This document shows positions 11,322 to 39,682 of a stretch of DNA of 40,973 nucleotides, piece after piece. The stretch is from a virus, in the UHGV virus genome UHGV-0256613; one strand, given 5' to 3'. The notes beneath the pieces were generated by a model. It was not told the origin of the DNA, made no database searches, and was given only the letters and a program-made list of their open reading frames with translations. Numbering within the stretch: the stretch's first letter is position 1; each line of letters starts with the position of its first letter. The translations under genes and the position numbers were made by a program.

Positions 11322-11407
11322 ATACTTGACAATGTACCCTTGGGATACATAATGTATCTAAAAGAAACACAACACAGGCAAGATTAAACAAAATTTGGTT
11401 GTAACAC

Positions 11408-11757
11408 GGCGTATGGCACATGCGTCGTTAGCGGTCTGGGGACGTTAAAGGGGACAATCCACTCCTTGCTCGGGCAAACAAACCAGGTAGCCGGAATGTG
11501 CAAGTCAATGATGATGCTGATAAGACGCCTAACCAGCGTGGCGATCCGGTTTGACGCCTGGGAAGAGACCAGGGTGCAACGATGAGGGTATTTATGGAGC
11601 CGCGACAAAGTGTGGTGCCGTAACTGGCTAAGTGCTCTCAGCGTTGTGGTAATCCGCGAAATGGCGCGGCGGTAAGTATGGCGGGGTTACTCTTTCCCCG
11701 TTGAGGACACCGGATTGTCAGGTTGACCATACGCCTGAGTGACAACCCCACCACAAC
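11408..11757 (+). ncRNA. candidate structured RNA, left copy (conserved ~240-nt module plus a 115-nt multi-stem 3' domain)
   Basis: 11408-11650 is homologous to the reverse complement of 18574-18829; no plus-strand ORF; UCGG tetraloop hairpin CUUGC-UCGG-GCAAG; stem CCUGG/CCAGG covaries with CCUCG/CGAGG in the other copy; 3' domain closed by GTTGTGG(11643-11649)/CCACAAC(11751-11757) with nested hairpins. Confidence 0.4.
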
Positions 11758-14224: not shown

Positions 14225-15003
14225 TGACCACATTTACCAATAAAGAACTGATTAAAGAAATCAAAGAACGAATCAGCAGCCTAGAGGTTCGAGACGATAT
14301 TGAGCGCCGTGCTTATGAAATTGCTCTGGCATCGCTAGAAGAGGAGCCGGTGGCATGGCTGCATTCAGAAAATGGCTTAGGTATTCCGGCAATAACGAGG
14401 AGTAAAAACATTGCTGACAGTTGGTTATCAAAGGGCTGGTATGTTCAGCCGCTATATATAGCCAAGCCAGTGCCGGTAGTGCCAGATGCTCGTCCGTCTT
14501 TAAATAATGGCATAGTCGGTTTTGATGAAGGCTGGAACGCCTGCCGCGCCGCCATGCTTCATGGTGCCAAACCTGTAAACCAAACTTACAAGTCACCACA
14601 CACGCTGTTTGAACAAGTTGCTGACCTCTACGAAATGCAATTTGATGACGGTCGCACTTGTGCCTTTCACACTGATGCGCAAAAGGCTGCGCAATGGCTT
14701 CAGGTGTGCGACGGAAACAGGGTTCAGGAATACGTTAAGCTGGAACGGCTGCAGAACGCGCTGTCTGGCAACTCTCCGGTAAGTCCGGGTGGTTGGATAA
14801 GCTGTAGTGAGCGAATGCCGAACGATAAACAGTATGTTTGGTGTTGGGGTAAGTCTTACGGCTGGACTGAGTGCGATACCTTCGAAGGGTATTACGATTG
14901 GTCGAGAAACAAATGGTGGGCAGTTACTGACGATGGGGAAGAACCGGCATCGAAAGTAACCCACTGGATGCCGCTACCAGAACCGCCGCAGGAGGTGAAG
15001 TGA
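14224..15003 (+). CDS. hypothetical protein with C-terminal DUF551-like domain
   Basis: 259 aa; C-terminus ...WCWGKSYGWTECDTFEGYYDW...VTHWMPLPEPP. Confidence 0.65.
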   Translation: MTTFTNKELIKEIKERISSLEVRDDIERRAYEIALASLEEEPVAWLHSENGLGIPAITRSKNIADSWLSKGWYVQPLYIAKPVPVVPDARPSLNNGIVGFDEGWNACRAAMLHGAKPVNQTYKSPHTLFEQVADLYEMQFDDGRTCAFHTDAQKAAQWLQVCDGNRVQEYVKLERLQNALSGNSPVSPGGWISCSERMPNDKQYVWCWGKSYGWTECDTFEGYYDWSRNKWWAVTDDGEEPASKVTHWMPLPEPPQEVK

Positions 15004-15125
15004 TGAACAAGTGCAACGCTCTGCTTTATGCCATGGTGATTGGTTTCGGCCTGGTTGCTGGTATCCGGGTTTATATTACCTGGGAGTCATTAATCAATCT
15101 GGCGTGGAGTGCGATTCGTGGCTAA
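15003..15125 (+). CDS. possible small hydrophobic membrane peptide (40 aa)
   Basis: ATG overlaps the upstream stop (TGATG); MNKCNALLYAMVIGFGLVAGIRVYITWESLINLAWSAIRG; not in ORF track (below size cut-off). Confidence 0.3.
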   Translation: MNKCNALLYAMVIGFGLVAGIRVYITWESLINLAWSAIRG

Positions 15126-15420
15126 ATCCCCCGCAGAACGCAAAGCCGCGCAGCGCGCTCGGCAGTCCGCCGCCGGTGAGCGCAAAATTGAACTGGTGCT
15201 GGATAAGCAGGAGCAGGAAATGCTGGCGCGGAACTGCGCCGCCCGGCGCCCTGGTCGCGATCCCTATGAAATGGCCGAGTACATCGCGCTGCTGATCCGC
15301 CAGGATGATGCACGTGTGCGCGGGCGTATAAAATCGATCAGCAGAAACTTTGCGGTAAGTGCGGCGAGAGAGTTCCCGTTAATTCATGCCCGTGTAATGG
15401 TGACTCGCAATGCTGGGTGA
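15109..15420 (+). CDS. hypothetical basic protein
   Basis: 103-aa ORF with GTG start, Arg/Ala-rich; last gene before the terminase leader. Confidence 0.45.
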   Translation: MRFVAKSPAERKAAQRARQSAAGERKIELVLDKQEQEMLARNCAARRPGRDPYEMAEYIALLIRQDDARVRGRIKSISRNFAVSAAREFPLIHARVMVTRNAG

Positions 15421-15451
15421 CTAAAGGCTGGCATGAAACGAAATTAATAGT

Positions 15452-15463
15452 GTGACATGTCAC
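15452..15463. promoter_or_regulatory. perfect 12-bp palindrome GTGACATGTCAC upstream of the terminase operon (second copy at 36061-36072)
   Basis: Exact palindrome; both copies are immediately followed by an intrinsic-terminator hairpin. Confidence 0.4.
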
Positions 15464-15504
15464 GAGTAGATTATGCATGATGAATTTGATGGGTTTTGAA
15501 TACT

Positions 15505-15530
15505 GCCGCCAACTATGGCGGCTTTATTTT
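15505..15530 (+). terminator. intrinsic terminator-like hairpin in the leader of the structural operon
   Basis: GCCGCC-aactat-GGCGGC followed by TTTATTTT, ~45 nt upstream of the terminase small-subunit start. Confidence 0.45.
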
Positions 15531-15573
15531 GCATGGTACTATTACCACAACGGTAACAATTACCATGGTGGTT

Positions 15574-16170
15574 ATGATGCCTGCTGAACCTAAAACCTAT
15601 AAACGCAAATCAACGCAATTTAAGCCACTAACCGCAATGCAGGAGGCTTATTGCCAGTCATACATCAAAACGCCTGAAAACCAGACTCAGGCAGCGATTA
15701 ACGCAGGATTCTCCCCAAATACAGCGGCAGTTAAAGCCAGTGTCATGATGCGCGATGAACGCATTCAAAAACGGATTGCCGAGTTGATGGAGGAGCGCAA
15801 CAAACGAATGCGCGTCAGTGCCGATTACGTTCTCATGCGCCTGGTGGAGATCGACCAGATGGACGTGATTGATATCCTCAATGACGATGGGAGCCTTAAG
15901 CCAATCCGCGAGTGGCCGAAAATCTGGCGCACTACGCTTAGTGGCTTTGATCTGTCATCGACCATCATGAACATGAACGAGGATTCGATAGAGACAATTC
16001 TCAAAAAAATTAAATGGCCTGACAAGGTGAAGAACCTCGAACTGATTGGTAAGCACGTCGACGTCAATGCATTCAAAGAACGCCTGGATGTTAATGTGAA
16101 TGTGACAATTGCTGATCGCATAGCGGCAGCCAGGAAGCGACTCAAAGAACGTCAGGATGGTAATCAGTGA
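15574..16170 (+). CDS. terminase small subunit
   Basis: Basic helix-rich protein immediately upstream of, and overlapping, the large terminase; ORF track extends upstream to 15496 through the terminator hairpin. Confidence 0.8.
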   Translation: MMPAEPKTYKRKSTQFKPLTAMQEAYCQSYIKTPENQTQAAINAGFSPNTAAVKASVMMRDERIQKRIAELMEERNKRMRVSADYVLMRLVEIDQMDVIDILNDDGSLKPIREWPKIWRTTLSGFDLSSTIMNMNEDSIETILKKIKWPDKVKNLELIGKHVDVNAFKERLDVNVNVTIADRIAAARKRLKERQDGNQ

Positions 16171-17636
16171 CAGATACAGCGTTATCTCCTGAAGAGCAGT
16201 TGATCGAGGATATTGCAGGGTTCACTCACGATCCGCTTGGCTATGCCCTCTATGCGTTCCCGTGGGGGGAAGAGGGGACTGAACTGGCACATGCTACCGG
16301 CCCACGTCAGTGGCAGGCTGATGCGTTCCGAGAGATACGTGATCACCTGCAGAATCCAGAGACGCGCTATCAGCCGCTTATGCTGGCACGCGCTTCTGGT
16401 CACGGTATTGGTAAATCCGCATTCATCTCAATGCTGATCAACTGGGGCATGTCCACTTGCGAGGATTGTAAGGTCGTGGTGACCGCCAACACCGACAACC
16501 AGCTACGAACGAAGACCTGGCCGGAAATTATCAAGTGGTCGAACCTTGCTATCACGAAAGACTGGTTTACCTGTACCGCTACTGCGATGTACAGCAATGA
16601 TCCTGGGCACGACAAGCGGTGGCGAGCTGACGCAATCCCCTGGTCTGAGCACAACACTGAGGCATTCGCCGGACTACACAACGAGCGCAAACGCATCATC
16701 GTGGTATTCGATGAAGCGTCGAACATTGCGGATCTGGTGTGGGAAGTTGCTGAGGGTGCGCTTACGGACGAAGACACTGAGATTATCTGGGTGGCGTTCG
16801 GAAACCCTACACGTAATACCGGGCGTTTTCGCGAATGTTTCCGCAAATACAAACACCGCTGGAAAACTGCGCAGATTGACAGCCGGACGGTGGAAGGTAC
16901 TAACAAACAGCAGTTGCAGAAATGGGTTGATGACTACGGGGAAGACAGCGACTTCGTTAAAATCCGTGTGCGCGGCATATTCCCTGATGCATCTGAATTG
17001 CAGTTTATCCCTACCGGTCTTACTGATGAGGCAATGAAACGGGTGGTAACCGCTGCGCAGGTTGCACATGCTCCGGTGATAATCGGCGTTGACCCGGCAT
17101 ACTCCGGAGTTGATGACGCTGTGATATACCTGCGGCAGGGGCTGCACAGTAAGGTGCTGTGGACTGGCAACAAGACCACTGACGATCTGATAATGGCGAA
17201 GCGTATCGCTGACTTTGAAGACCAGTACCAGGCTGACGCAGTGTTCATCGACTTCGGTTACGGAACTGGTCTGAAGTCAATCGGTGACGGCTGGGGTCGT
17301 ACATGGCAACTTGTTCCGTTCGGTGGCGCGTCTACTGACCCGCAGATGCTCAACAAGCGTGGGGAGATGTTCAACTCATGCAAGACATGGCTGAGGCTGG
17401 GCGGGATGCTGGATGACCAGGAAACAGCAGACGACCTGTCGACGGCAGAGTACAAAGTTCGCGTGGACGGTAAAATCGTTATCGAACCGAAGGAAGATAT
17501 CAAAGAGCGACTTGGGCGTTCGCCGGGTAAAGGTGATGCGCTGCTGCTAACGTTCGCCTTCCCGGTAGCCAAGAAAACTAATGACCCACGGCAGCAGCAG
17601 GGGAAAGCTATTACTGAGTACGATCCGTTTTCATAA
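16167..17636 (+). CDS. terminase large subunit
   Basis: 489 aa; Walker A-like GHGIGKS; GTG start overlapping the small-subunit stop (GTGA). Confidence 0.9.
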   Translation: MTDTALSPEEQLIEDIAGFTHDPLGYALYAFPWGEEGTELAHATGPRQWQADAFREIRDHLQNPETRYQPLMLARASGHGIGKSAFISMLINWGMSTCEDCKVVVTANTDNQLRTKTWPEIIKWSNLAITKDWFTCTATAMYSNDPGHDKRWRADAIPWSEHNTEAFAGLHNERKRIIVVFDEASNIADLVWEVAEGALTDEDTEIIWVAFGNPTRNTGRFRECFRKYKHRWKTAQIDSRTVEGTNKQQLQKWVDDYGEDSDFVKIRVRGIFPDASELQFIPTGLTDEAMKRVVTAAQVAHAPVIIGVDPAYSGVDDAVIYLRQGLHSKVLWTGNKTTDDLIMAKRIADFEDQYQADAVFIDFGYGTGLKSIGDGWGRTWQLVPFGGASTDPQMLNKRGEMFNSCKTWLRLGGMLDDQETADDLSTAEYKVRVDGKIVIEPKEDIKERLGRSPGKGDALLLTFAFPVAKKTNDPRQQQGKAITEYDPFS

Positions 17637-17640
17637 AGTT

Positions 17641-18246
17641 TTAAGCAGCATTGTCTGTGTTGCGATTGTTCCTTGAGTTAAACTTATTTGCAATTCTGGT
17701 ATTGGATTTTATTTTTTCTTCTGCAAGTTCTTTTTCAAGCGCCATTATTTTTTCAATAAGGGAATCTCTTTCCTGCAAAAAAGAATTCAAAGACTCTTGG
17801 TGCTTGATTAAATCATTTTTATAGAATTGAATCTCAGACTCAAACTCAACCTTAACTCTGTCGTATGTAATGTCCCTTTGTGCCTCAAGCTTACGCAATT
17901 CTATGGCGTTTTTAACATCCCTGAGGCTTTTGTTGTGTTTGAAGTTATCGATGTTCTGTAGTGGAATTTTTTGAAACATCACCACTATATTGTTAAACCA
18001 TGGAACTATTACACACAGCGCGAATGCACATAAAGCTGGATATAAGAGTGAGTGGTACGCATCACTATGGGAAGATATATAATTTATTTTTTCTTCAATT
18101 CCTGACTTACTGAAGAATAAAAATAATAGTGGATTCCAGTTAAAAGAACACCACGAAAACACAAATGCCCCAAGTGCTGGGTTGCGGACTCTCTCTGACG
18201 CTGTGCTAATAGCCGATGATGCGATCTCTTTAAATTGCTCGAACAT
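17641..18246 (-). CDS. membrane protein with C-terminal coiled-coil (moron), unknown function
   Basis: 201 aa; AT-rich; two hydrophobic segments then a charged helical region (ELRKLEAQRDITYDRVKVEFESEIQFYKNDLIKHQESL...); convergent with the terminase genes. Confidence 0.65.
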   Translation of the reverse strand: MFEQFKEIASSAISTASERVRNPALGAFVFSWCSFNWNPLLFLFFSKSGIEEKINYISSHSDAYHSLLYPALCAFALCVIVPWFNNIVVMFQKIPLQNIDNFKHNKSLRDVKNAIELRKLEAQRDITYDRVKVEFESEIQFYKNDLIKHQESLNSFLQERDSLIEKIMALEKELAEEKIKSNTRIANKFNSRNNRNTDNAA

Positions 18247-18278
18247 GTCTAAACCAGATGTTAAATGTTTTTGTTATC

Positions 18279-18293
18279 TTACCTTCAAGGTAA
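18279..18293. promoter_or_regulatory. TTACC-N5-GGTAA palindrome (copy 1 of 4)
   Basis: TTACCttcaaGGTAA ~30 nt upstream of the minus-strand moron gene start at 18246. Confidence 0.4.
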
Positions 18294-18309
18294 CGTTCAG
18301 TCACCAGGC

Positions 18310-18333
18310 AAAAAAATGCCCGGCGAACCGGGC
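18310..18333 (-). terminator. rho-independent terminator downstream of the minus-strand tRNA
   Basis: On minus strand GCCCGG-uucg-CCGGGC followed by a T7 run. Confidence 0.55.
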
Positions 18334-18496
18334 GAACTGGAAGCAATGAGTTATGCCTTCCGTGGCTGTACTGGTTTACAGCATGAAGTCATCGCAATGG
18401 CGTCCTGCTGTAAAAAGGGCGGTGATAGTCCTTCAAGGGAAACAGTCACCGCCAATCCCCTGGAACTTCTGGCATCACGGTCCTTAGGCGTGATTC

Positions 18497-18573
18497 TGGC
18501 GTGGCATGCAGGATTCGAACCTGCGACCAACCGCTTAGAAGGCGGTTGCTCTGTCCAACTGAGCTAATGCCAC
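18497..18573 (-). tRNA. tRNA-Arg (anticodon UCU), phage-encoded
   Basis: Minus-strand GTGGCATTAGCTCAGTTGGACAGAGCAACCGCCTTCTAAGCGGTTGGTCGCAGGTTCGAATCCTGCATGCCACGCCA folds as a cloverleaf: 7-bp acceptor, D-arm GCTC/GAGC, anticodon loop CUUCUAA, T-loop TTCGAAT, encoded CCA; acceptor stem differs from recalled host argU. Confidence 0.9.
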
Positions 18574-18829
18574 AACGCTGAGAGCACTGGTTTGGCTCGA
18601 TATCAGGTAGGGTGGAACAGCCCGCTAATATCCAATGCTCTCATCGTTGTACCCTCGTCTCTTCCGAGGCGTCACACCGAATCGCCGGGATGGTGAATCC
18701 CCGTGCGCGGAATAAAACCGCTCGACTTGCACATTCCGGCTACCTGGTTCGTTTGCCCGAGCAAGGGAGGGTGCCCCTTAAACGTATCCAGACCGCTATC
18801 GTCGCATGTGCCATACGCCGTACTGCTCA
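18574..18829 (-). ncRNA. candidate structured RNA, right copy, directly 5' of tRNA-Arg
   Basis: Reverse complement is homologous to 11408-11650 with conserved flanks and a diverged central hairpin region; the conserved 3' block AGTGCUCUCAGCGUU abuts the tRNA 5' end. Confidence 0.4.
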
Positions 18830-18902
18830 AAATAAAAGCTCACTCCACCTGTTCAATTTAACGACAAGCCAGTCAGGTTAGTAACCGGAATGAACTCTTT
18901 GG

Positions 18903-18917
18903 TTACCTTAAAGGTAA
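18903..18917. promoter_or_regulatory. TTACC-N5-GGTAA palindrome (copy 2 of 4)
   Basis: TTACCttaaaGGTAA between the right RNA element and the small ORF/portal operon. Confidence 0.4.
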
Positions 18918-19007
18918 TAATTCGTGCATTAAATGTCAACTGTCTACGATAAATAAATCATATGTGGTTAAATTGGTAATAATTTAATTGCGTACGGAGT
19001 CATTGAT

Positions 19008-19214
19008 ATGTGCATGGGTAGCTCACCATCAGTGCCTGCAACACCAGAAGTTCAGGCAGCACCACAGGAGCAGGATGCCGCCGTTGTTGATGCCCGCGAC
19101 GAAGAAACTCGTCGCCGTCGCGCTGCTGCTGGTCGTAGTTCTACGCTGCTTACCGGTTCTCAGGGCGACACATCAACCGCTAATACCAGCGGTAAAACGC
19201 TGCTTGGTCAGTAA
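19008..19214 (+). CDS. hypothetical small protein upstream of portal
   Basis: 68 aa with GGAG SD; the same SD context (ccggagtcattga) recurs before the portal gene. Confidence 0.5.
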   Translation: MCMGSSPSVPATPEVQAAPQEQDAAVVDARDEETRRRRAAAGRSSTLLTGSQGDTSTANTSGKTLLGQ

Positions 19215-19228
19215 CCGGAGTCATTGAA

Positions 19229-20908
19229 ATGGCGGAAACAACTAAAGAGCGATTGAACAAACAGTTCGCACAACTTGAAAGCGAGCGTCAATCGTTCGAG
19301 CCGCACTGGCGCGAGTTGAGTGATTACATCAACCCGCGTGGTTCCCGCTTTCTGACTTCTGAGGTCAACCGTAACGATCGACGCAATACACGTATTATTG
19401 ATTCGACCGGGACTATGGCGGCGCGCACTCTCGCCAGCGGCATGATGTCAGGCATCACAAGCCCCGCGCGTCCGTGGTTTCGCCTGGCTACGCCAGATCC
19501 TGAAATGATGGATTATGGCCCTGTTAAGTTGTGGCTTGAGGCGGTGCAGAACCGCATGAACGATATGTTCAATAAGTCGAATCTCTATCAGTCTCTGCCG
19601 CAGTTATACGGAAGCCTCGGCACATACAGCACTGGTGCAATGGCAGTGCTGGAGGATGACGAGGACATCATTCGCACAATGCCATTCCCGATAGGCAGTT
19701 ACTACCTGGCTAACTCACCTCGTGGCAGTGTGGACACCTGTTTTCGCAAGTTCTCTATGACTGTTCGTCAGCTTGTTCAGGAGTTCGGGCTAAATAACGT
19801 CAGCGAATCCGTAAAAAGCATGTGGGAAAGCGGCACCTACGAGAAGTGGATTGAAGTGATGCATTCGGTTTACCCGAACATTGACCGCGATGCATCGAAG
19901 CTGGATAGCAAGAACAAGCCATTCAAATCGGTTTATTACGAGGTTGGTGGCGATAACGACAAGTTGTTGCGCGAGTCCGGATTCGATGAGTTTCCAATTA
20001 TGGCTCCGCGCTGGGAAGTTAACGGCGAAGATGTTTATGGATCATCATGCCCGGGTATGCTGGCGCTTGGACCTGTTAAGGCATTGCAGCTTCTCCAGAA
20101 GCGCAAGTCGCAGTTGATTGATAAAGCCACCAATCCGCCGATGGTTGCTCCGACTTCCCTCAAGAATCAGCGCGCCTCCCTTCTTCCTGGCGACATCACG
20201 TATATCGATCAGATTACTGGTCAGGATGGCTTCAGGCCTGCTTATCTGGTTAACCCCAGTACAGCAGATTTGGTGGCAGACATTCAGGACACTCGTCAAA
20301 TCATTAACAGCGCCTACTTCGTCGATCTGTTCATGATGTTGCAGAACATCAATACCCGCTCAATGCCTGTTGAAGCGGTGATCGAAATGAAAGAAGAAAA
20401 GCTTCTGATGTTGGGGCCGGTTCTGGAGCGTCTGAACGACGAATGTCTTAATCCTCTCATTGACCGCGCTTTCTCGATGATGGTGCGTAAAAACATGCTG
20501 CCGCCACCGCCTGACGCGATGGAAGGTATGCCCCTGAAGGTCGAATACATTTCTGTCATGGCTCAGGCGCAGAAGTCTATCGGCCTGTCCAGTCTGGCGT
20601 CCACGGTTAACTTCATTGGTCAACTTGCGCAAGCGAAACCAGAAGCTTTCGACAAACTCAACGTTGATCAGGCGATCGATGCATTCGCTGATATGTCCGG
20701 AGTGTCTCCAACCGTCATTGTTCCGCAGGAACAGGTTGAGCAGGCTCGCCAGCAACGGGCACAGCAACAACAGCAGCAACAAATGATGGCGATGGGGATG
20801 GCGGCGGCACAGGGTGCCAAGACGCTAAGCGAAGCTAAAACTTCGGATCCGAGTGTTTTGTCAGCTATGGCGAATGCAGTTAGTGGTCAGGGTGGGCAAT
20901 CACAATGA
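19229..20908 (+). CDS. portal (head-to-tail connector, T7 gp8-like)
   Basis: 559 aa; position after terminase; Gln/Ala-rich C-terminal tail; first gene of a T7-order structural module. Confidence 0.85.
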   Translation: MAETTKERLNKQFAQLESERQSFEPHWRELSDYINPRGSRFLTSEVNRNDRRNTRIIDSTGTMAARTLASGMMSGITSPARPWFRLATPDPEMMDYGPVKLWLEAVQNRMNDMFNKSNLYQSLPQLYGSLGTYSTGAMAVLEDDEDIIRTMPFPIGSYYLANSPRGSVDTCFRKFSMTVRQLVQEFGLNNVSESVKSMWESGTYEKWIEVMHSVYPNIDRDASKLDSKNKPFKSVYYEVGGDNDKLLRESGFDEFPIMAPRWEVNGEDVYGSSCPGMLALGPVKALQLLQKRKSQLIDKATNPPMVAPTSLKNQRASLLPGDITYIDQITGQDGFRPAYLVNPSTADLVADIQDTRQIINSAYFVDLFMMLQNINTRSMPVEAVIEMKEEKLLMLGPVLERLNDECLNPLIDRAFSMMVRKNMLPPPPDAMEGMPLKVEYISVMAQAQKSIGLSSLASTVNFIGQLAQAKPEAFDKLNVDQAIDAFADMSGVSPTVIVPQEQVEQARQQRAQQQQQQQMMAMGMAAAQGAKTLSEAKTSDPSVLSAMANAVSGQGGQSQ

Positions 20909-21201
20909 CAGATTACGAAGACGATCAACTGAAAGAAGAAAACGCCCGTAAGCAACGTGACATGGCACAGCGTGAAATTGATGACATTCGCTTTGTCATG
21001 AGCAGTGAACAGGGGCGTCGCGTTGTCTGGTCTGTGCTGGAGAAAGGCCGGGTGTTTTCCGCTATCTCACCGATGGACGCTATGGCAATGGCATTTAATG
21101 AGGGGCAACGCAATCTGGCGCTGGAACTGTTTCAGCGCGTTATGGCGCATTGCCCTGAACAGTATTTGAAGATGGCCAAAGAGGCCAGTGAACAGGAGTG
21201 A
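20905..21201 (+). CDS. hypothetical head-assembly protein
   Basis: 98 aa; ATGA overlap with the portal stop. Confidence 0.55.
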   Translation: MTDYEDDQLKEENARKQRDMAQREIDDIRFVMSSEQGRRVVWSVLEKGRVFSAISPMDAMAMAFNEGQRNLALELFQRVMAHCPEQYLKMAKEASEQE

Positions 21202-21899
21202 TCATGAATTTATTTGAGCGTTTGCTGTATCGCCGTCTTTGCAATGAGCAACCAGTCGATGGTGGAGCAGCTCCGGCTGCGTCAGAACCGTCAGCGCCTG
21301 CAGGTGATAACCCTGCTCCAGTTGGTGATCCATCACAACAGGAAGGTGATAAGCCACAACCTGTTGCTGATGGCGATAAACCTGCTGATGACAAAAAGCC
21401 TGAAAACGATAAGCAGGATGAAAAAAAGGACGGCGATAAACCAGAGGGTGCGCCTGAGAAGTACGAGTTTCAGGCTGCCGAAGGCGTAGAGCTGGATACA
21501 GAAGCGTTGAAGGAGTTCGAGCCGGTGGCGCGAGAACTTAACCTGACCAACGAGCAAGCGCAAAAGCTGGTTGATGCTTATCCGAAAATTCTGGCAGGTG
21601 TTCAGCAGCGCCAGGCAGAAGCCTGGCAGAAAACAACCGAGCAGTGGGCTGCGGATGTAAAAGCTGACAAAGAAATCGGTGGCGACAAGTTGATTTCTAA
21701 CCTTAGCGCCGCACAGCGTGCGCTTGACCAGTTCGGGACACCTGAACTCAAAGAATATCTGAACACCACCGGGCTGGGTAATCACCCTGATCTGGTCAAA
21801 ACGTTCGTGAAAATCGGAAAGGCTATGTCTGAAGATGGCATGGTCACCGGTGGTAATGAAGGCCAGCGTAGTGCGGCCGAAGTGCTCTATGGCAAATAA
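21198..21899 (+). CDS. scaffolding protein
   Basis: 233 aa; highly acidic, Pro/Asp/Lys-rich N-terminus and helical C-terminus, between portal and capsid genes. Confidence 0.65.
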   Translation: MIMNLFERLLYRRLCNEQPVDGGAAPAASEPSAPAGDNPAPVGDPSQQEGDKPQPVADGDKPADDKKPENDKQDEKKDGDKPEGAPEKYEFQAAEGVELDTEALKEFEPVARELNLTNEQAQKLVDAYPKILAGVQQRQAEAWQKTTEQWAADVKADKEIGGDKLISNLSAAQRALDQFGTPELKEYLNTTGLGNHPDLVKTFVKIGKAMSEDGMVTGGNEGQRSAAEVLYGK

Positions 21900-21913
21900 G
21901 AGAGGAGATAACA

Positions 21914-22900
21914 ATGTCTGTTAAAGGCTTAACTGCGCTAACGCTGGCTGACTGGGGTAAGCGCGTCGATCCAAATGGGAAAGTCGATAAGATTATCGAG
22001 CTTCTCAATCAAACTAACCCAATTCTTCAGGATATGCCTTTTGTTGAAGGAAACCTTCCTACCGGACACCGAACCACCATTCGTTCTGGTTTACCTTCTG
22101 CTACCTGGCGTTTGCTGAACTATGGCGTACAGCCAAGCAAATCAACCACAGTGCAGGTCACCGATTCCATTGGCATGCTGGAAACCTATGCTGAAGTCGA
22201 TAAGTCTCTGGCTGATCTGAACGGTAATACTGCCGAATTCCGTCTGTCTGAAGACCGAGCATTTATTGAAGCGATGAATCAGGCGATGGCGCAGACACTG
22301 TTTTACGGTGATTCCAGCGTTAACCCTCAGCAGTTTATGGGACTGTCCTCCCGCTATTCCAGCCTGTCTGCGGGTAATGCTCAGAACATCATTGATGCTG
22401 GTGGCACGGGTACAGATAACACTTCAATCTGGTTAGTGGTGTGGGGCGAAAACACCGTGCATGGCATCTTCCCGAAAGGACAGAAGGCTGGCATTCAGAT
22501 GGAAGATAAAGGCCAGGTGACACTGGAAGATGCTAAAGGCGGCAAGTACGAAGGTTATCGTACCCATTATAAGTGGGACAACGGGCTGACATTACGTGAC
22601 TGGCGCTATGTAGTTCGTATCGCAAACATTGATGTCAGTAATCTTGACGCTCCTTCTACTGCCGCGAATATCGCAAAACTGATGATTCGTGCCCTTCATC
22701 GAATCCCAAATCGTGGGATGGGACGTCCTGTTTTCTACATGAACAGAACCATTAACGAAGTGCTTGACCTGCAATCTCTGGAGAAGAGTTCTCTGGCGAT
22801 CAGCGTGAAAGAGACAGAAGGCGAATGGTGGACAGCACTTCGTGGTGTGCCGATTCGTGAAACTGACGCACTTCTGGAAACAGAAGCCCGCGTGGTGTAA
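21914..22900 (+). CDS. major capsid protein
   Basis: 328 aa; follows the scaffold gene; strong SD (AGAGGAGA). Confidence 0.8.
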   Translation: MSVKGLTALTLADWGKRVDPNGKVDKIIELLNQTNPILQDMPFVEGNLPTGHRTTIRSGLPSATWRLLNYGVQPSKSTTVQVTDSIGMLETYAEVDKSLADLNGNTAEFRLSEDRAFIEAMNQAMAQTLFYGDSSVNPQQFMGLSSRYSSLSAGNAQNIIDAGGTGTDNTSIWLVVWGENTVHGIFPKGQKAGIQMEDKGQVTLEDAKGGKYEGYRTHYKWDNGLTLRDWRYVVRIANIDVSNLDAPSTAANIAKLMIRALHRIPNRGMGRPVFYMNRTINEVLDLQSLEKSSLAISVKETEGEWWTALRGVPIRETDALLETEARVV

Positions 22901-22951
22901 CGCCTGTTATTAACCTGTGGGCCGCAACAGGCCCACTAATGGAGAAAGAAG

Positions 22952-23389
22952 ATGATCACCGACAAACTGTTGATGTTCTCCGAAGCACAGGCGGTAACTG
23001 ATACCGCGGCTTCTACTGACGTAATCGATCTCGGTCCAATTGACGGAAACCGTCGCGATATCGGTGTGGGTTACCCGCTTGAGTTTTGGGTGCTGGTTAA
23101 CGAAGCCGCCACGGCAAGTGGTGAGGCAACTGTAAACATCCAGTTGCAGACGAGTGAGAATAACAGCTCATGGTCCACTATTTATGATAGTGGCGCACTG
23201 GCAAAGGCCACCCTGACAGCAGGTAAGCGAGTTGTTTCTGCAAAGGTGCCTGCCGGTGTTCAGCGATATCTGCGTGTTAACTACTCCGTCGCAACTGGCC
23301 CACTAACGGCTGGCAAATTCACTGCGGGTATCAATCTTGATGTTGATGCCAATACGCCGTATCCGATCCGCTCAAAAGTAACTGGTTAA
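22952..23389 (+). CDS. hypothetical virion protein
   Basis: 145 aa; strong SD; within structural operon. Confidence 0.6.
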   Translation: MITDKLLMFSEAQAVTDTAASTDVIDLGPIDGNRRDIGVGYPLEFWVLVNEAATASGEATVNIQLQTSENNSSWSTIYDSGALAKATLTAGKRVVSAKVPAGVQRYLRVNYSVATGPLTAGKFTAGINLDVDANTPYPIRSKVTG

Positions 23390-23390
23390 G

Positions 23391-23735
23391 GTGATATTGA
23401 TGTCAGGTGAGAAACCAAGATACCGCGTTCTGCGCCTCTCTCATATCCATAACACTCTGTGGCCGGAGGGGGCAGAAATCGAATACGAAGGTGAGCCTGG
23501 TAGCGCACTGGAACCTGTTAACGATGCAGCCAGACAGGCAAAAGCAAAAGTTGCAGGAAAGGTGTCAATGGCAGCAACCAGCACCAAAATCATCAACGAT
23601 GTGTCAGATGATGGTGAACTGGATAAGCTCCGTGAAGAGTACGAATTGCTCTTTAACGAGAAGCCACACCATAACGCCAAAGCCGAAACGCTCCGCGAGA
23701 AGATCGCAGATAAGCGTAAAGAACTGGGCGTGTAA
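23391..23735 (+). CDS. hypothetical virion protein
   Basis: 114 aa; tightly coupled to the preceding gene; followed by a terminator. Confidence 0.6.
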   Translation: MILMSGEKPRYRVLRLSHIHNTLWPEGAEIEYEGEPGSALEPVNDAARQAKAKVAGKVSMAATSTKIINDVSDDGELDKLREEYELLFNEKPHHNAKAETLREKIADKRKELGV

Positions 23736-23752
23736 GCCTCGCGAATCAGACA

Positions 23753-23773
23753 AGGGGCTTCGGCCCCTTTATT
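23753..23773 (+). terminator. rho-independent terminator after the capsid gene block
   Basis: AGGGGC-ttcg-GCCCCT followed by TTATT; position analogous to T7 T-phi. Confidence 0.65.
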
Positions 23774-23791
23774 GCAGGAGTATAGAAACTT

Positions 23792-24397
23792 ATGGCCTCT
23801 GTAGTAGAGATCTGCAATCGTGCGCTGTCCAATATTGGCAACAGCCGCAGTATTAACAGCCTGACGGAAGCCAGCAAGGAAGCGGGGGAATGTTCGCTGC
23901 ACTTTGAGGCCTGCCGTGATGCTGTGCTTTCTGATTTTGACTGGAACTTTGCTACCAAACGCGTGGCGCTTGCAGATACGAGCAATCCACCGCCTGACTG
24001 GGAATATGCGTACCAGTACCCGTCCGATTGTCTGCGCATTACTGAAATTATGCTTCCTGGTGTACGCAATCCAACAGCAGCAATGCGCGTTCAGTACGAA
24101 GTTGGTGCAGACACCAACGGAACAGGAAAGTTGATCTACACAGACCAGCCGCAGGCATGGCTCAAGTATGTATCTCGCGTTTCAGATGTGAACATGTTTG
24201 ATGCCATTTTTATGGAGGCGTTGGCCTGGCGTCTTGCGGCAGCCATTAACATGGCGCTGACTGGGAATGCAGACCTCGGTACGTTTGCCCTCAATATGTA
24301 CAATCGCGTGATTCTTAGTGCTGGCTCGCATAGCCAGAATGAATCACAGGAACCACAGCCACCGGTTGACGAGTTTACCATTGCGAGGTTGTCCTGA
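23792..24397 (+). CDS. tail tubular protein A (T7 gp11-like)
   Basis: 201 aa; size, position and N-terminal pattern (..NRALSNIG..SINSLTE..) resemble T7 gp11. Confidence 0.6.
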   Translation: MASVVEICNRALSNIGNSRSINSLTEASKEAGECSLHFEACRDAVLSDFDWNFATKRVALADTSNPPPDWEYAYQYPSDCLRITEIMLPGVRNPTAAMRVQYEVGADTNGTGKLIYTDQPQAWLKYVSRVSDVNMFDAIFMEALAWRLAAAINMALTGNADLGTFALNMYNRVILSAGSHSQNESQEPQPPVDEFTIARLS

Positions 24398-26868
24398 TGG
24401 CTATCAGTTGGATCCAGCCCAGCTTTGCCGGTGGTGAGATTGGACCGTCGTTGTACGGACGTATCGACATGGCGAAGTACCAGGTGGCATTGCGCAAGTG
24501 CGATAACTTTATCGTGCGGCAGTATGGCGGCGTTGAGAATCGACCAGGTACGCGTTTTGTCGGTGCCGCAAAATACCCAAATCGGAAATGCCGCCTGATC
24601 CCGTTCCAGTTCTCGACGGTTCAGACCTATGCTCTGGAGTTCGGACACCAGTACATGCGCGTTATCAAAGATGGTGCGTTGGTGCTGAACAGCAGCAATG
24701 TTATTTATGAAATTGCCACGCCATATACTGAAGCCGATCTGTTCCGAATTAAATTCACGCAAAGCGCCGACGTGCTTACGCTGGTTCACCCGGCATACCC
24801 GCCGAAAGAGTTGCGCCGCTACGCGCATGACAACTGGCAACTGGTTGATGTGGTAACGAAGAACGGGCCATTTGAAGATATCAATATTGACGAGTCAGTG
24901 ACGGTTTATGCCAGCGCCAGCACCGGGACAATTACGTTAACGGCAAGCGCCTCTATTTTTGGCGCGGAGCAGGTAGGCAAATTGTTCTATCTGGAACAGC
25001 CTGCAGTGGATTCAGTGCCGGTATGGGAAACCAGTAAGAGTACGTCGATTGGCGATATTCGCCGTGCAGACAGTAATTACTATCGCGCCGTTACAGCAGG
25101 CAAAACAGGCACTTTGCGCCCTTCGCATACAGAAGGCACATCATGGGATGGCTGGGGCGGCTCCGGTGATGATGATACTGGCATTGAGTGGGAGTATCTG
25201 CACAGTGGTTTTGGCATTGCCCGTATCACTGCTGTAAACGGCACTACTGCAACTGCCGAGGTGATTTCCTATATCCCTTCGCAGGTCGTTGGCGAGGATA
25301 ATGCCAGCTATAAATGGGCTAAATATGCCTGGAACAGTGTTAATGGTTATCCTGGCACTGTTGTTTATTATCAACAACGTCTTTACTTCGCCGCATCGAC
25401 TGCGTTCCCTCAGACTATCTGGGCCAGCCGTACCGGGGATTATAAGGATTTTGGCAAAAGCAATCCTACGCAGGATGACGACAGAATTATCTACACCTAT
25501 GCCGGGCGTCAGGTTAATGAGATCCGCCACCTGATTGATGTTGGTTCGCTGGTGGCGCTGACTTCCGGAGGTGAGTACGTCATCACCGGCGACCAGAACA
25601 AAGTGTTAACCCCATCATCATTTGCATTCAGCTCTCAGGGATCAAATGGCTCAAGCAACGTCCCACCAATTGCTGTGGCGAATATTGCTCTGTTCGTCCA
25701 GGAGAAAGGCAGTGTTGTCCGTGATCTGGCCTACTCATTCGATGTTGACGGCTATCAGGGGAACGACCTTACTATCCTTGCCAATCATCTTTTTCAGAAG
25801 CACAGCATTGTTGACTGGTGCTTCTCTATTGTCCCTTACTCCAGCGCCTTCTGCATTCGTGATGACGGTAAATTACTGGTGATGACCTATTTGCGTGATC
25901 AACAGGTTTTTGCATGGGCACCACAGTCCAGTACCGGAAAATATGAAAGCACATGCAGTATCAGCGAAGGCAATGAAGATGCGGTGTATTTCGTCATTAA
26001 CCGAACCGTTAACGGGCAAACAGTGAGATACATCGAGCGACTGTCCAGCCGTTTATTTACCAGCGATGAAGATGCTTTCTTTGTTGATTCTGGCCTTAGC
26101 TATGATGGAAGAAATACGTCTGACAGAACGATGACCATCACTGGTGGTTCTGGTGAATGGGATTACCGTGCGGAATATACAATCAGTGTTTCTGGTGGTG
26201 CGTACTTCACCAGTAGTGATGTCGGCGCGCAACTACAGTTCCCTTATACCGGAACTGATCCTGATACTGGCGATGAAGTGTCAAAAGAATTACGTTGCGA
26301 CATTATTTCTGTAACCAGCAATACCGCAGTAGTGGTTCGTGCTAACAGGAACGTCCCGCCATCCCTCAGGAATGTGGCCACCACGAACTGGCAGATGGCG
26401 CGCCGGACATTTGGCGGCTTGTCTCATCTTGAAGGCCAGACCGTAAACATCCTCTCTGATGCGAACGTGGAACCACAAAAAGTGGTTTCCGGAGGTGCCG
26501 TCACGCTGGAATCACCGGGGGCTGTTGTGCACATCGGCCTGCCAATAACTGCTGAATTCGAAACACTGGATATCAACATTAACGGACAGGAAACGCTGCT
26601 GGACAAAAAACAGGTGATCCCGTCCGTTACTCTGGTTGTGAATGCCAGTCGCGGCATCTGGGCGACTACGCCCGGCGGTAAATGGTACGAATATCCACAG
26701 CGTGAATTCGAGTTCTACGATGATCCTGTTGATGATGCTACCGGAAAAGTAGAAGTGAAGCTGGACAGTAACTGGGGCAAAAACGGGCGTGTAAAAATCC
26801 GTCAGCTTGACCCGTTGCCGCTGTCTGTTCTTGCCGTTATTCCTCGCCTTACTGTTGGGGGATTCTGA
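24397..26868 (+). CDS. tail tubular protein B (T7 gp12-like)
   Basis: 823 aa; overlapping start; size and order match T7 gp12. Confidence 0.65.
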   Translation: MAISWIQPSFAGGEIGPSLYGRIDMAKYQVALRKCDNFIVRQYGGVENRPGTRFVGAAKYPNRKCRLIPFQFSTVQTYALEFGHQYMRVIKDGALVLNSSNVIYEIATPYTEADLFRIKFTQSADVLTLVHPAYPPKELRRYAHDNWQLVDVVTKNGPFEDINIDESVTVYASASTGTITLTASASIFGAEQVGKLFYLEQPAVDSVPVWETSKSTSIGDIRRADSNYYRAVTAGKTGTLRPSHTEGTSWDGWGGSGDDDTGIEWEYLHSGFGIARITAVNGTTATAEVISYIPSQVVGEDNASYKWAKYAWNSVNGYPGTVVYYQQRLYFAASTAFPQTIWASRTGDYKDFGKSNPTQDDDRIIYTYAGRQVNEIRHLIDVGSLVALTSGGEYVITGDQNKVLTPSSFAFSSQGSNGSSNVPPIAVANIALFVQEKGSVVRDLAYSFDVDGYQGNDLTILANHLFQKHSIVDWCFSIVPYSSAFCIRDDGKLLVMTYLRDQQVFAWAPQSSTGKYESTCSISEGNEDAVYFVINRTVNGQTVRYIERLSSRLFTSDEDAFFVDSGLSYDGRNTSDRTMTITGGSGEWDYRAEYTISVSGGAYFTSSDVGAQLQFPYTGTDPDTGDEVSKELRCDIISVTSNTAVVVRANRNVPPSLRNVATTNWQMARRTFGGLSHLEGQTVNILSDANVEPQKVVSGGAVTLESPGAVVHIGLPITAEFETLDININGQETLLDKKQVIPSVTLVVNASRGIWATTPGGKWYEYPQREFEFYDDPVDDATGKVEVKLDSNWGKNGRVKIRQLDPLPLSVLAVIPRLTVGGF

Positions 26869-35011: not shown

Positions 35012-35083
35012 AACAGCGAAGCCCAACGGTGGCCAGACCGTCAGGGCTTCAGTATCGTAAAACTACGTATAGGAATTAACGAC

Positions 35084-36022: not shown

Positions 36023-36073
36023 CAGAACGGCGGCACAGGGATGTGCAAAACGGAACTATCGTGACATGTCACA

Positions 36074-37152: not shown

Positions 37153-37273
37153 ATGAACCTCAACCAATCGACTTTACCAATCGGGTAATTTTAAACATGA
37201 GTATAATGCTTTTAACTGCAACGAGTGTAAACAATTATTGATAATTGTAGGCACATCCCTGTGCCGCCGCCCG

Positions 37274-37966: not shown

Positions 37967-38015
37967 AGCGATCACCTTTGTAGTTAGGTTAATCACCACC
38001 GCTGAGACCAATCAG

Positions 38016-38098: not shown

Positions 38099-38233
38099 AG
38101 AATAGGTGCGCTTTACACATAAAAAAACCGCTTATGCGGCATATGTGCCTCTGTAGTAATCCGGGAGACCAATCCCGGCACTGGATTTTGCCAGTGCCCG
38201 ATTACTATGGCACAAGAGGAGTGCAATGTAAAT

Positions 38234-39606: not shown

Positions 39607-39682
39607 CTTATCTTCTCCATGCAATAACTGTATGTTTATACAGTAACAAATAATTTGTTTGCTATCCAGCACGTTTTGCAAA

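What the first reader, a model, noticed from the sequence alone, without database searches (positions are those of the whole stretch)
17641..18246. AT-rich membrane/coiled-coil moron inserted between terminase and portal
This minus-strand gene is convergent with the terminase genes, compositionally distinct (AT-rich), and has its own upstream palindrome (18279-18293). Terminase and portal genes are normally adjacent, so this is an insertion. Two hydrophobic segments followed by a long charged helix resemble superinfection-exclusion or abortive-infection membrane proteins, though I recognise no specific family.
Basis: inference. Interest (0 to 1): 0.5.

Follow-up and report, generated by a model that had tools for sequence, protein, structure and literature searches.

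The report
Repressor-wired phage membrane accessory gene
This is a real accessory gene of an epsilon15/phiV10-type temperate phage: it encodes an uncharacterised inner-membrane protein with a swappable helical tail, its promoter carries the phage repressor's binding site, and it is a plausible but unproven player in phage-versus-phage competition.

Summary
ORF 17641-18246 (-) is a 201-aa gene at 36% GC, against about 52-55% in its flanks. It converges on terL, and the palindrome at 18279-18293 is there exactly as described.

It belongs to a large family with no curated model (PHROG 4780; 590 clusters at E<=1e-10). Members share a conserved N-terminal module of about 160 aa: an amphipathic helix, a two-segment membrane hairpin and a conserved juxtamembrane helix. 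The C-terminal coiled-coil tail is exchanged by recombination.

The gene sits in a lineage-specific cargo slot (terL | cargo | tRNA-Arg | portal) of enterobacterial epsilon15-like prophages. Distant relatives have terL and portal about 300 bp apart. phiV10 and epsilon15 carry a different gene there.

The new point is the palindrome. It is one copy of the phage-wide motif ATTACC-N5-GGTAAT, which the epsilon15 record annotates as the repressor operator. It overlaps the -10 of a sigma70-like promoter and travels with the cassette. The gene is therefore probably regulated by Rep rather than constitutive.

Function is untested. There is no detectable homology to SieA, SieB, PADLOC, Pfam or PDB entries. 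Exclusion or abortive infection is my best guess (about 0.4), supported by distant relatives in the validated P2 gpA-gpQ defence hotspot.

The parts
17641..18246 (-). CDS, 201 aa. Inner-membrane protein with an N-terminal amphipathic helix, a two-segment hydrophobic hairpin (about aa 24-45 and 63-92), a conserved juxtamembrane helix (about aa 98-165) and a short variable coiled-coil tail.
18276..18281 (-). Predicted -10 hexamer, TAAGAT. Other alleles have TAGAAT, TACAAT, TATACT or TATGAT at the same position.
   Evidence: Read. The consensus scan did not report it, because the promoter matches only 8 of 12 positions.
18279..18293 (.). Palindrome TTACCTTCAAGGTAA, a copy of the epsilon15-type Rep operator (ATTACC-N5-GGTAAT). 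It spans the promoter spacer and the first bases of the -10. Its matrix score is sub-optimal: 17.3, against 23-25 for the portal, ant and tailspike sites.
18299..18304 (-). Predicted -35 hexamer, GTGACT, 17 bp upstream of the -10.
   Evidence: Read. The GCCTGGTGAC context is conserved in alleles L003, L005, L015 and L018.
18310..18333 (-). Rho-independent terminator (GCCCGGTTCGCCGGGC plus a T-run) that ends the upstream tRNA-Arg unit. It is also the right-hand boundary of the exchangeable cassette relative to phiV10.
18497..18573 (-). tRNA-Arg(UCU), which reads AGA. It lies on the same strand, directly upstream of the cargo gene. Seven of the cargo gene's 10 Arg codons are AGA or AGG, against at most 1 AGA/AGG codon in each of terS, terL, portal and the major capsid gene.
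18903..18917 (.). Second perfect Rep-operator copy, TTACCTTAAAGGTAA, upstream of the 68-aa gene and the portal gene. Epsilon15 annotates a repressor site at the equivalent position.
16167..17636 (+). terL (terminase large subunit), convergent with the cargo gene. Its last roughly 20 codons diverge from phiV10, which marks the left cassette boundary at about 17570.
19008..19214 (+). Conserved 68-aa gene (epsilon15 gp3-like, PHROG 831) that precedes the portal gene.
19229..20908 (+). Portal gene (PF12236, Head-tail_con).

Best explanation
The ORF is a genuine, dispensable accessory gene of an epsilon15/phiV10-type temperate podophage.

Shown:
- It encodes a member of a large, unannotated family of phage-borne membrane proteins.
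- Family members share a conserved N-terminal module of about 160 aa and a C-terminal coiled-coil tail that recombination swaps between otherwise near-identical alleles.
- The gene occupies a lineage-specific cargo slot between terL and tRNA-Arg/portal.
- It carries a sigma70-like promoter whose spacer and -10 are overlapped by a copy of the phage repressor operator.

Inferred:
- Topology is N-in, loop-out, C-in, so the helical tail faces the cytoplasm.
- Rep damps the promoter in a lysogen. The promoter is released when Rep is absent or inactivated, that is on fresh infection, SOS induction or antirepressor action.
- The protein acts at the inner membrane in competition between phages, as exclusion or abortive infection. 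The hairpin would be the anchor or effector and the swappable tail the specificity determinant.

The gene anatomy and its regulatory wiring are well supported. The antiviral function is my best guess only.
For: - Gene and family: PHROG 4780 at E=6.5e-52. Six close homologues of the window protein and 202 homologues of the Klebsiella relative, all named hypothetical. A profile search gave 590 cluster representatives at E<=1e-10. Conserved motifs are NPxxGAFxxSWxxFNW, PWxNN and LxxLxAxxDxTYD.
- Topology: over 137 members the net charge is +1.5 before TM1, -0.8 in the loop and +2.0 after TM2.
- Slot: distant relatives have a terL-portal gap of about 300 bp; enterobacterial relatives have 1.1-2.2 kb with minus-strand cargo. 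phiV10 has the same flanks at 95-96% identity but a different gene. Family alleles fill the same slot in other genera.
- Operator: TACC-N5-GGTA occurs 8 times in the window against 0.23 expected, 10 times in phiV10, 15 in EC.W1-9 and 13 in epsilon15. Epsilon15 record AY150271.2 annotates these sites as 'repressor; lysogeny'. Rep is homologous to PDB 5D50, and the SPC32H Rep binds palindromic sites as a tetramer (PMC9638917).
- The operator and -10 lie about 45 nt upstream of the ATG in alleles L009, L018, L003, L005 and L021.
- A prophage carrying the identical allele also encodes Rep.
- Tail swapping: of 548 pairs that are at least 95% identical over the N-terminal 160 aa, 135 are under 30% identical in the tail.
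- Conflict role: the gene is a lone antisense gene in four kinds of temperate element. Two of these are in the P2-like gpA-gpQ locus, a validated antiviral hotspot (PMC9122126; PMC13586616). Only 3 of 50,697 phage records carry the family, and all three are temperate.
Against: - No sequence or fold similarity to any known exclusion or defence protein. PADLOC gave only coiled-coil noise. Pfam and NCBIfam gave nothing. hhalign against SieB and SieA gave probability below 1%. PDB and BFVD returned only generic long helices.
- A Rep operator over the -10 argues against strong expression in the lysogen, which is where classical Sie and Abi genes act.
- The other cargo genes seen in the same slot are of unknown function, plus one HNH endonuclease. 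None is a known defence gene.
- Topology rests only on the positive-inside rule. TM1 is weakly hydrophobic, and the model has low confidence in the N-terminal half (pLDDT 47-68).
- Operator function at this promoter is inferred from sequence and from a GenBank annotation, not measured. Its score is in the lowest quartile of sites.
- The window itself does not contain a Rep gene.
Confidence: 0.4

Rival explanations
1. A lytic-cycle accessory protein rather than a protector of the lysogen. The gene would be switched on together with the Rep-controlled lytic promoters. It would act for the phage during growth, for example by countering a host membrane-based defence, by modulating the envelope, cell division or lysis timing, or by blocking secondary infection of the already infected cell, as T4 Imm and T5 Llp do.
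For: The Rep operator overlaps the -10, the same arrangement as at the terS, portal, tailspike and ant promoters. The alternative cargo genes in the slot lack this operator. The adjacent tRNA-Arg(UCU) matches the gene's AGA/AGG-rich codon use, which suggests both are needed when phage genes are expressed. Swappable tails would also fit a counter-defence arms race.
Against: The gene is antisense to the late operon and has no terminator between it and terL, so late transcription would collide with it. It is dispensable: phiV10 and epsilon15 lack it. No virulent phage among 50,697 records carries the family. Relatives sit in the P2 gpA-gpQ locus, whose known cargo is expressed from the prophage. 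The promoter in front of the rep gene appears to have the same operator geometry, so an operator does not mean silence in a lysogen (my reading of the site orientation).
Confidence: 0.3
2. A lysogenic-conversion factor that changes host envelope physiology or fitness (stress tolerance, surface properties, colonisation) with no direct effect on other phages.
For: It is a membrane protein carried by prophages that are common in clinical and animal E. coli and Klebsiella. Epsilon15-like phages are known serotype converters (annotation; PMC7380047).
Against: Recombinational swapping of the tail and placement in phage variable hotspots fit conflict better than a housekeeping host benefit. There is no signal peptide or enzyme domain. 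A phiV10-like lysogen showed no phenotype in growth, biofilm, stress or virulence assays (PMC9782041 abstract); whether that phage carries this gene was not checked, and the 61% coverage suggests it does not.
Confidence: 0.12
3. A member of a known exclusion or lysis family that has diverged beyond easy recognition: SieB or SieA, a class II holin, or an Rz-type i-spanin.
For: The architecture is similar. SieB has N-terminal membrane segments plus a cytoplasmic domain, is antisense to its neighbours and has its own promoter. Class II holins are two-segment membrane proteins with N-in, C-in topology. i-spanins combine a membrane anchor with a coiled coil.
Against: hhalign of the family profile against lambda SieB, P22 SieB and P22 SieA gave probability 0.2-0.4%. 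No Pfam SieB, holin or spanin hit appeared at E<=0.1. The size (200-500 aa) and the location outside the lysis cassette do not fit holins or spanins. Related phages carry their own holin and Rz/Rz1 elsewhere.
Confidence: 0.03
4. Not a functional gene: a chance ORF or a decaying remnant.
For: The ribosome-binding site of this allele is weak. Some prophages that carry it are decaying.
Against: There are 590 diverged cluster representatives with conserved motifs. The reading frame is intact in all alleles examined. The DNA is 100% identical in 25 complete genomes. The promoter and operator are conserved.
Confidence: 0.02

Closest known systems
SieB of phages lambda and P22 (superinfection exclusion / abortive infection; Pfam PF14163)
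   Same: A single small gene, AT-rich, antisense to its neighbours and with its own promoter. It has N-terminal membrane segments followed by a soluble C-terminal part, and it is carried by temperate enterobacterial phages.
   Different: No detectable homology (hhalign probability below 1%). SieB has no long coiled coil and no swappable tail. The P22 sieB promoter is annotated without a repressor operator. SieB lies in the early-left operon, not in the packaging and head module.
Cargo of the P2-like gpA-gpQ hotspot (old, tin and many validated antiviral systems; Rousset et al. 2022, PMC9122126)
   Same: Distant members of this family are the sole cargo at that locus in two P2/186-like prophages. 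Both loci show the same logic: a variable slot next to the packaging genes and an AT-rich singleton gene.
   Different: The window gene sits in a different phage type and a different slot. No member of this family is among the systems tested in that paper; a sequence-motif search of its supplementary tables found none. Sharing a location is not the same as sharing a function.
Operators of a primary phage repressor scattered over the genome, as with P1 C1 (from my own knowledge of P1), and the Rep/Ant switch of the epsilon15-like phage SPC32H (PDB 5D50; PMC9638917)
   Same: One repressor motif lies in front of many transcription units. A C4 antisense RNA and antirepressor region is also present in the window.
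   Different: This concerns how the gene is regulated, not what its product does. Rep binding at this particular site has not been shown.
Exclusion proteins expressed during lytic growth (T4 Imm, T5 Llp; from my own knowledge)
   Same: Small envelope proteins made when the phage's lytic genes are on, which block later-arriving phage.
   Different: No sequence relation was tested. Those proteins are much smaller (Imm) or are lipoproteins (Llp), and neither has a coiled-coil tail.

Membership tests
PHROG 4780-type family (uncharacterised phage proteins with a membrane hairpin and coiled coil) | Significant full-length match to the family profile, covering the N-terminal module | tested here: met
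   E=6.5e-52 over residues 1-197 against profile positions 1-199 of 275. The protein aligns with 116 homologues and shares 15 invariant positions.
PHROG 4780-type family (uncharacterised phage proteins with a membrane hairpin and coiled coil) | Two hydrophobic segments followed by a long helix | tested here: met
Moron (Hendrix-type: an extra transcription unit between genes that are adjacent in related phages) | Lies between genes that are adjacent in relatives | tested here: met
   The terL-portal gap is 278-360 bp in the Pseudomonas, Geopseudomonas and Sphingopyxis relatives, against 1.1-2.2 kb here.
Moron (Hendrix-type: an extra transcription unit between genes that are adjacent in related phages) | Base composition deviates from the flanks | tested here: met
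   36% GC against 52-55%.
Moron (Hendrix-type: an extra transcription unit between genes that are adjacent in related phages) | Own promoter | tested here: inconclusive
   GTGACT, 17 bp, TAAGAT, with the -10 conserved across alleles. It falls below the threshold of the consensus scan, and there are no transcript data.
Moron (Hendrix-type: an extra transcription unit between genes that are adjacent in related phages) | Own terminator | tested here: not met
   The stop codon is 4 nt from the terL stop. Only weak hairpins lie inside the neighbouring coding sequences. phiV10 has a terminator at this position, but this allele does not.
Moron (Hendrix-type: an extra transcription unit between genes that are adjacent in related phages) | Expressed from the repressed prophage | not testable with these tools
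   The Rep operator over the -10 argues for at least partial repression. RNA data are needed.
SieB (PF14163) | Sequence or profile similarity to SieB | tested here: not met
   No Pfam hit at E<=0.1. hhalign probability was 0.2% against P22 SieB and 0.4% against lambda SieB.
SieA (P22) | Sequence or profile similarity to SieA | tested here: not met
   hhalign probability 0.4%.
Known anti-phage defence systems (PADLOC-DB 2.0.0) | Match to any component model beyond compositional coiled-coil similarity | tested here: not met
   The window protein gave only one weak hit, to a CARF_HEPN model at E=0.0014 over the helix. The 42 diverse members matched only the SMC-like coiled-coil models LmuB and JetC.
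Class II holin | Small (under about 150 aa) two-segment membrane protein encoded in the lysis cassette next to the endolysin | tested here: not met
   The protein is 201 aa and the family ranges from 200 to 500 aa. The gene lies in the packaging module. Holin, endolysin and Rz/Rz1 are annotated elsewhere in related genomes.
Rz-type i-spanin | Single N-terminal membrane anchor, periplasmic coiled coil, and a paired o-spanin gene | tested here: not met
   There are two hydrophobic segments, and the charge distribution places the tail in the cytoplasm. There is no embedded or adjacent lipoprotein gene. The topology has not been verified experimentally.

The most novel reading that the evidence does not exclude
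The family is a new class of single-gene, membrane-anchored antiviral proteins with recombinationally swappable coiled-coil sensor tails. In epsilon15-like prophages the gene would be held in check by the prophage repressor's own operator. It would then fire only when Rep is missing or inactivated, for example by SOS induction or by the antirepressor of an incoming related phage. That would make it a defence, or a self-limiting suicide module, that guards the repressor.
Probability: 0.1. Interest if true: 0.75.

Novelty: new member of a known kind. Interest (0 to 1): 0.4.

Why it matters
Hundreds of diverged versions of this protein sit in prophages of E. coli, Klebsiella, Salmonella and other bacteria, and none has a name, a Pfam model or a tested function. 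This locus is a compact, well-delimited test case:
- one gene;
- a defined promoter with a repressor operator;
- natural tail-swap variants;
- natural 'empty' or differently filled alleles (phiV10, epsilon15) to serve as controls.

If the protein excludes or aborts other phages, it adds a widespread family to the prophage defence repertoire. It would also be an example of a defence gene wired directly to the lysis-lysogeny switch. If it does not, the operator still shows that accessory cargo can be recruited into the Rep regulon of epsilon15-like phages.

Tried and rejected
- Pfam, NCBIfam, PADLOC and PDB sequence searches with the single protein, the 117-sequence profile and 42 diverse members. 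They returned only coiled-coil noise: SMC, LmuB, JetC, myosin and similar.
- hhalign against lambda SieB, P22 SieB and P22 SieA found no relation.
- Guilt by association within the slot was uninformative. The other cargo genes are PF13876 (Sf6 gp66-like), several PHROGs of unknown function and one HNH endonuclease.
- Literature searches by accession, PHROG number, phage name and 'Uetakevirus + superinfection exclusion' found nothing on this gene.
- The two papers that would document the operator (Kropinski 2007, PMC2698709; Kim & Ryu 2013, PMC3807360) are not held. The operator assignment therefore rests on the GenBank annotation of epsilon15 and on a secondary citation.
- I checked whether the '2TM' protein of the validated AC1 system in Rousset et al. 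is a family member. It is not; it lacks the family motifs. A motif search of that paper's supplementary tables found no member.
- I first suspected the 201-aa protein was truncated, because the PHROG profile is 275 positions long. I rejected this: a subfamily of 201-203 aa exists, and tails vary in length across the family.
- I treated the LexA-like box at 18366-18381 as a possible regulator and set it aside. It lies upstream of the terminator that separates the tRNA unit from the cargo promoter.

Full report
**1. The observation**

The ORF at 17641-18246 on the minus strand is real: 201 aa with an ATG start. Its stop codon lies 4 nt from the stop of the large terminase gene (16167-17636, +), so the two genes converge. 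GC content falls to 0.35-0.37 across the gene, against 0.52-0.55 in terL and the portal gene; the gene itself is 0.36. The palindrome TTACCTTCAAGGTAA sits exactly at 18279-18293.

The product has two hydrophobic segments, at about residues 24-45 (Kyte-Doolittle 1.3) and 63-92 (2.1). AlphaFold, run with a 117-sequence alignment, gives an all-helical model (mean pLDDT 73.7) with one continuous helix over residues 98-200. That stretch contains no Pro or Gly in 98-185, and its heptad periodicity is strongest at about 127-175.

**2. Which phage, and what kind of position**

Window 14774-27683 is 99.7% identical to Escherichia phage EC.W1-9. The gene order is that of the epsilon15/phiV10 group (Uetakevirus): terS, terL, the slot, a 68-aa gene, portal (PF12236), protease and capsid.

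phiV10 and about a dozen E. coli relatives share the flanks at 95-96% identity but carry different DNA in between (61% query coverage in two pieces). phiV10 and epsilon15 have a 123-aa Sf6-gp66-like gene (PF13876) there, also on the minus strand.

Aligning the window with phiV10 places the right boundary of the exchanged segment at the terminator hairpin 18318-18333. The left boundary falls inside the last roughly 20 codons of terL.

I surveyed one genome per species, using TerL as the query. In Pseudomonas, Geopseudomonas and Sphingopyxis relatives, terL and portal are only 278-360 bp apart, enough for just the small gene. In enterobacterial relatives the gap is 1.1-2.2 kb and holds assorted minus-strand cargo. 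So 'inserted between genes that are normally adjacent' is right for the lineage. However, the position is a standing cargo slot, not a one-off insertion.

A tRNA-Arg(UCU) (18497-18573, -) lies in the same slot. The cargo gene uses AGA or AGG for 7 of its 10 arginines, whereas terS, terL, portal and the capsid gene each use at most one AGA/AGG codon.

**3. The protein family**

The protein matches PHROG 4780 (unknown function) at E=6.5e-52, and three further PHROGs more weakly.
- A word-indexed search found close relatives (73-94% identical) in E. coli, Klebsiella michiganensis and Kluyvera.
- Searching with the 41%-identical Klebsiella phage homologue found 202 more proteins, all named hypothetical.
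- An exhaustive profile search found 590 representatives of 50%-identity clusters at E<=1e-10, with lengths of about 200-500 aa.

Members share residues 1 to about 165 of the window protein:
- an N-terminal helix;
- the motif NPxxGAFxxSWxxFNW in the first hydrophobic segment;
- a KIxYI loop helix;
- PWxNN in the second segment;
- a conserved juxtamembrane stretch, QxxPLxNxD...LxxLxAxxDxTYD.

After that the sequence becomes unalignable.

The divergence of the tail is not gradual. Of 548 pairs that are at least 95% identical over the first 160 residues, 135 are under 30% identical in the tail, and nearly all the rest are above 50%. Tails are therefore exchanged by recombination.

Charge counts over 137 members give +1.5 before TM1, -0.8 in the loop and +2.0 after TM2. 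By the positive-inside rule this places both ends, including the helical tail, in the cytoplasm. This is an inference. TM1 is only weakly hydrophobic, and the model is least confident in that region.

**4. The palindrome is the phage repressor's operator**

This is the main new result. The core TACC-N5-GGTA occurs 8 times in the window, against 0.23 expected; no shuffle out of 100 reaches that count. It occurs 10 times in phiV10, 15 in EC.W1-9 and 13 in epsilon15, against about 0.6 expected.

The sites lie in front of transcription units: upstream of terS (15543), the cargo gene (18280), the 68-aa gene and portal (18904), the C4/isrK antirepressor unit (38235) and the tailspike gene (39684). 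In complete genomes they also lie between the repressor gene and the cro-like gene, and as pairs 62 bp apart at the early-left and early-right promoters.

The epsilon15 GenBank record annotates exactly these sequences (ATTACC-N5-GGTAAT) as protein-binding sites labelled 'repressor; lysogeny'. That repressor is the homologue of the SPC32H Rep, whose structure is solved (5D50, E=8e-128). SPC32H Rep is reported to bind palindromic sites as a tetramer and to be disassembled by an antirepressor (PMC9638917).

On the minus strand, the cargo copy spans the spacer and the first three bases of a -10 hexamer. The promoter reads GTGACT (18299-18304), 17 bp, TAAGAT (18276-18281), and the ATG follows 29 nt after the -10.

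The same arrangement is kept in alleles whose coding sequences are only about 36% identical: an operator, then a -10 of the form TAnnnT, then an ATG about 45 nt downstream of the operator. It is also kept in copies that have moved elsewhere (L009, L018, L003, L005, L021). The alternative cargo genes of phiV10 and K. pneumoniae ATCC 13883 (L024) lack it.

A position matrix built from 38 sites scores the cargo operator at 17.3. The portal, ant and tailspike operators score 23-25, so this is a genuine but sub-optimal site.

A prophage at guaA in E. coli IMT16316 carries the identical allele. It also encodes a Rep homologue (5D50, E=4e-42) and has 14 motif copies.

I infer that the gene belongs to the Rep regulon: damped in the lysogen and released on infection or induction. 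The promoter facing the rep gene itself seems to have the same geometry. An operator therefore need not mean full silence.

**5. Mobility**

Members of the same family occupy the same slot in prophages of:
- E. coli (246 aa);
- Salmonella and Citrobacter (231 aa);
- Klebsiella (246-263 aa);
- Rahnella, Pantoea and an Advenella MAG.

Copies elsewhere still carry remnants of the terL 3' end, and most carry remnants of the tRNA terminator, so they derive from the slot. These are in the nin region of the lambdoid Klebsiella phage KO-TP1 and next to AlpA-like genes in K. michiganensis and Kluyvera.

More distant members are lone genes in other settings. Some lie between tail-fibre and parA genes of phage-plasmid-like contigs, antisense to their neighbours. 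Two are in P2/186-like prophages, between gpA and the portal gene gpQ.

Among 50,697 GenBank phage records only three carry the family, and all three are temperate.

**6. What it most likely does**

There is no catalytic domain and no partner gene, and no similarity to anything characterised:
- Pfam, NCBIfam and PADLOC gave nothing, or only coiled-coil noise.
- hhalign against lambda SieB, P22 SieB and P22 SieA gave probability below 1%.

The case for a role in conflict between phages is indirect. It rests on four points:
- the gene is an AT-rich singleton in variable regions of four kinds of temperate element;
- it is absent from virulent phages;
- its tail is swapped by recombination;
- two members occupy the P2 gpA-gpQ locus.

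That locus holds old and tin and has been shown experimentally to be a reservoir of antiviral systems (PMC9122126). In the sister P4 hotspot, six of eight unannotated loci tested were protective (PMC13586616).

I therefore commit to a membrane-anchored exclusion or abortive-infection protein, at about 0.4. The conserved hairpin and juxtamembrane helix would be the anchor or effector, and the variable cytoplasmic tail would set specificity.

The strongest rival, at about 0.3, is a lytic-phase accessory function: counter-defence, envelope or lysis-timing control, or exclusion during lytic growth. The Rep operator and the tRNA-codon coupling favour it. A host-physiology conversion factor is less likely (about 0.12). 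Hidden membership of SieB, holin or spanin families, and a non-functional ORF, are essentially excluded.

**7. Comparison with known systems and novelty**

In genetic layout the gene works most like SieB: a small AT-rich antisense gene with its own promoter and a membrane anchor. It fails the membership test for that family. As a moron it meets the position and composition criteria. The promoter is predicted only, it lacks its own terminator, and expression from the repressed prophage is doubtful.

It is best filed as a member of an uncharacterised family within a known kind of thing, namely accessory membrane proteins in phage variable slots. The repressor wiring and the modular tail are its distinctive features. 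Interest is moderate at 0.4. A specialist would not be surprised by a hypothetical membrane gene in a phage slot. The family's size, the clean regulatory hook and the natural variants nevertheless make it a good experimental candidate.

**8. Limits**

- Operator function, promoter activity, topology and any phenotype are inferred, not measured.
- The window contains no Rep gene.
- The left part of the window (1 to about 11300) is a lambdoid mEp460-like segment with its own CI-type repressor. Rep control in this particular genome therefore depends on sequence outside the window.
- The primary papers on the epsilon15 genome and the SPC32H switch were not available.

Noticed in passing
window 10581, 15543, 18280, 18904, 37175, 38235, 38360, 39684: Eight copies of TACC-N5-GGTA (extended consensus ATTACC-N5-GGTAAT) against 0.23 expected. 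They lie in front of terS, the cargo gene, the portal unit, the antirepressor unit and the tailspike gene. The motif matches the 'repressor' binding sites annotated in epsilon15, which points to a genome-wide Rep regulon with operators overlapping -10 elements.
   Followed up: yes
window 18334-18496 and 18574-18900: The non-coding stretches on both sides of tRNA-Arg are highly conserved with phiV10; the 163-nt trailer differs at only 3 positions. The trailer contains an 18-nt inverted repeat (18375-18392 / 18397-18414) and a LexA-box-like CTGTACTGGTTTACAG (18366-18381). Epsilon15 annotates an RNase III site in the equivalent region, and Rfam finds nothing. The annotated ORF that overlaps the tRNA on the opposite strand (18316-18567, +) is probably spurious. 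These stretches could be a processed leader and trailer, or a small RNA.
   Followed up: partly
window 11406-11592 versus 18634-18821: An inverted, 78%-identical partial copy of the region upstream of tRNA-Arg lies next to the 3' end of the lambdoid CI-type repressor gene (10613-11287). This is a possible recombination scar joining the lambdoid and epsilon15-like parts of the window.
   Followed up: partly
window 1-~11300: The left part of the window is not epsilon15-like. It is a lambdoid segment, 98% identical to mEp460/PhiR40_1, running leftward (replication, nin, Q, lysis genes). It has a CI/LexA-type repressor at 10613-11287 (+). No Rep homologue of the epsilon15 type is present in the window. 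The window is therefore a composite or tandem prophage region.
   Followed up: partly
window 9182-9370 and 38015-38197; 35015-35082: There are two copies of a C4 antisense RNA plus isrK pair (74% identical to each other) and one sar RNA, all on the minus strand. These are P1- and P22-style antisense control elements for antirepressor genes. An inverted repeat of about 258 bp at 94.6% identity (35789-36046 / 37251-37507) lies in the same region.
   Followed up: no
window 39628-39643: A perfect LexA box, CTGTATGTTTATACAG, lies about 40 bp upstream of the Rep operator at 39684, between a gp19-like minus-strand gene and the tailspike gene. It could link SOS induction to this region, in line with the LexA-controlled antirepressor reported for SPC32H (from memory; not verified here).
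   Followed up: no
window 17570-17645: The last roughly 20 codons of terL differ from phiV10 and fall inside the exchanged cassette. In Klebsiella alleles the 3' ends of terL and the cargo gene overlap by 4-19 nt. Tail swapping of the cargo gene therefore also rewrites the C-terminus of TerL.
   Followed up: partly
window 17641-18246 and 18497-18573: The cargo gene uses AGA or AGG for 7 of its 10 Arg codons. The structural genes use almost none. The tRNA directly upstream on the same strand reads AGA. This is a possible functional coupling between the tRNA and the AT-rich cargo.
   Followed up: partly
L074 41456-41968 and 43924-44430 (E. coli IMT16316 prophage); roughly window 36351-36899 and 38714-39325: RefSeq annotates two YafO-family toxin genes in the antirepressor (immI-like) region of the same prophage type. 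These are further accessory cargo next to the Rep-controlled ant unit.
   Followed up: no
L030 and L033 (Pseudomonas lundensis and Rahnella sp. contigs), slot between terL and portal: A different membrane protein of 148-165 aa (PHROG 3054, unknown function) occupies the same slot on the minus strand. So do several other PHROGs of unknown function and one HNH endonuclease (L043). The slot is a general cargo hotspot whose contents are almost entirely uncharacterised.
   Followed up: partly
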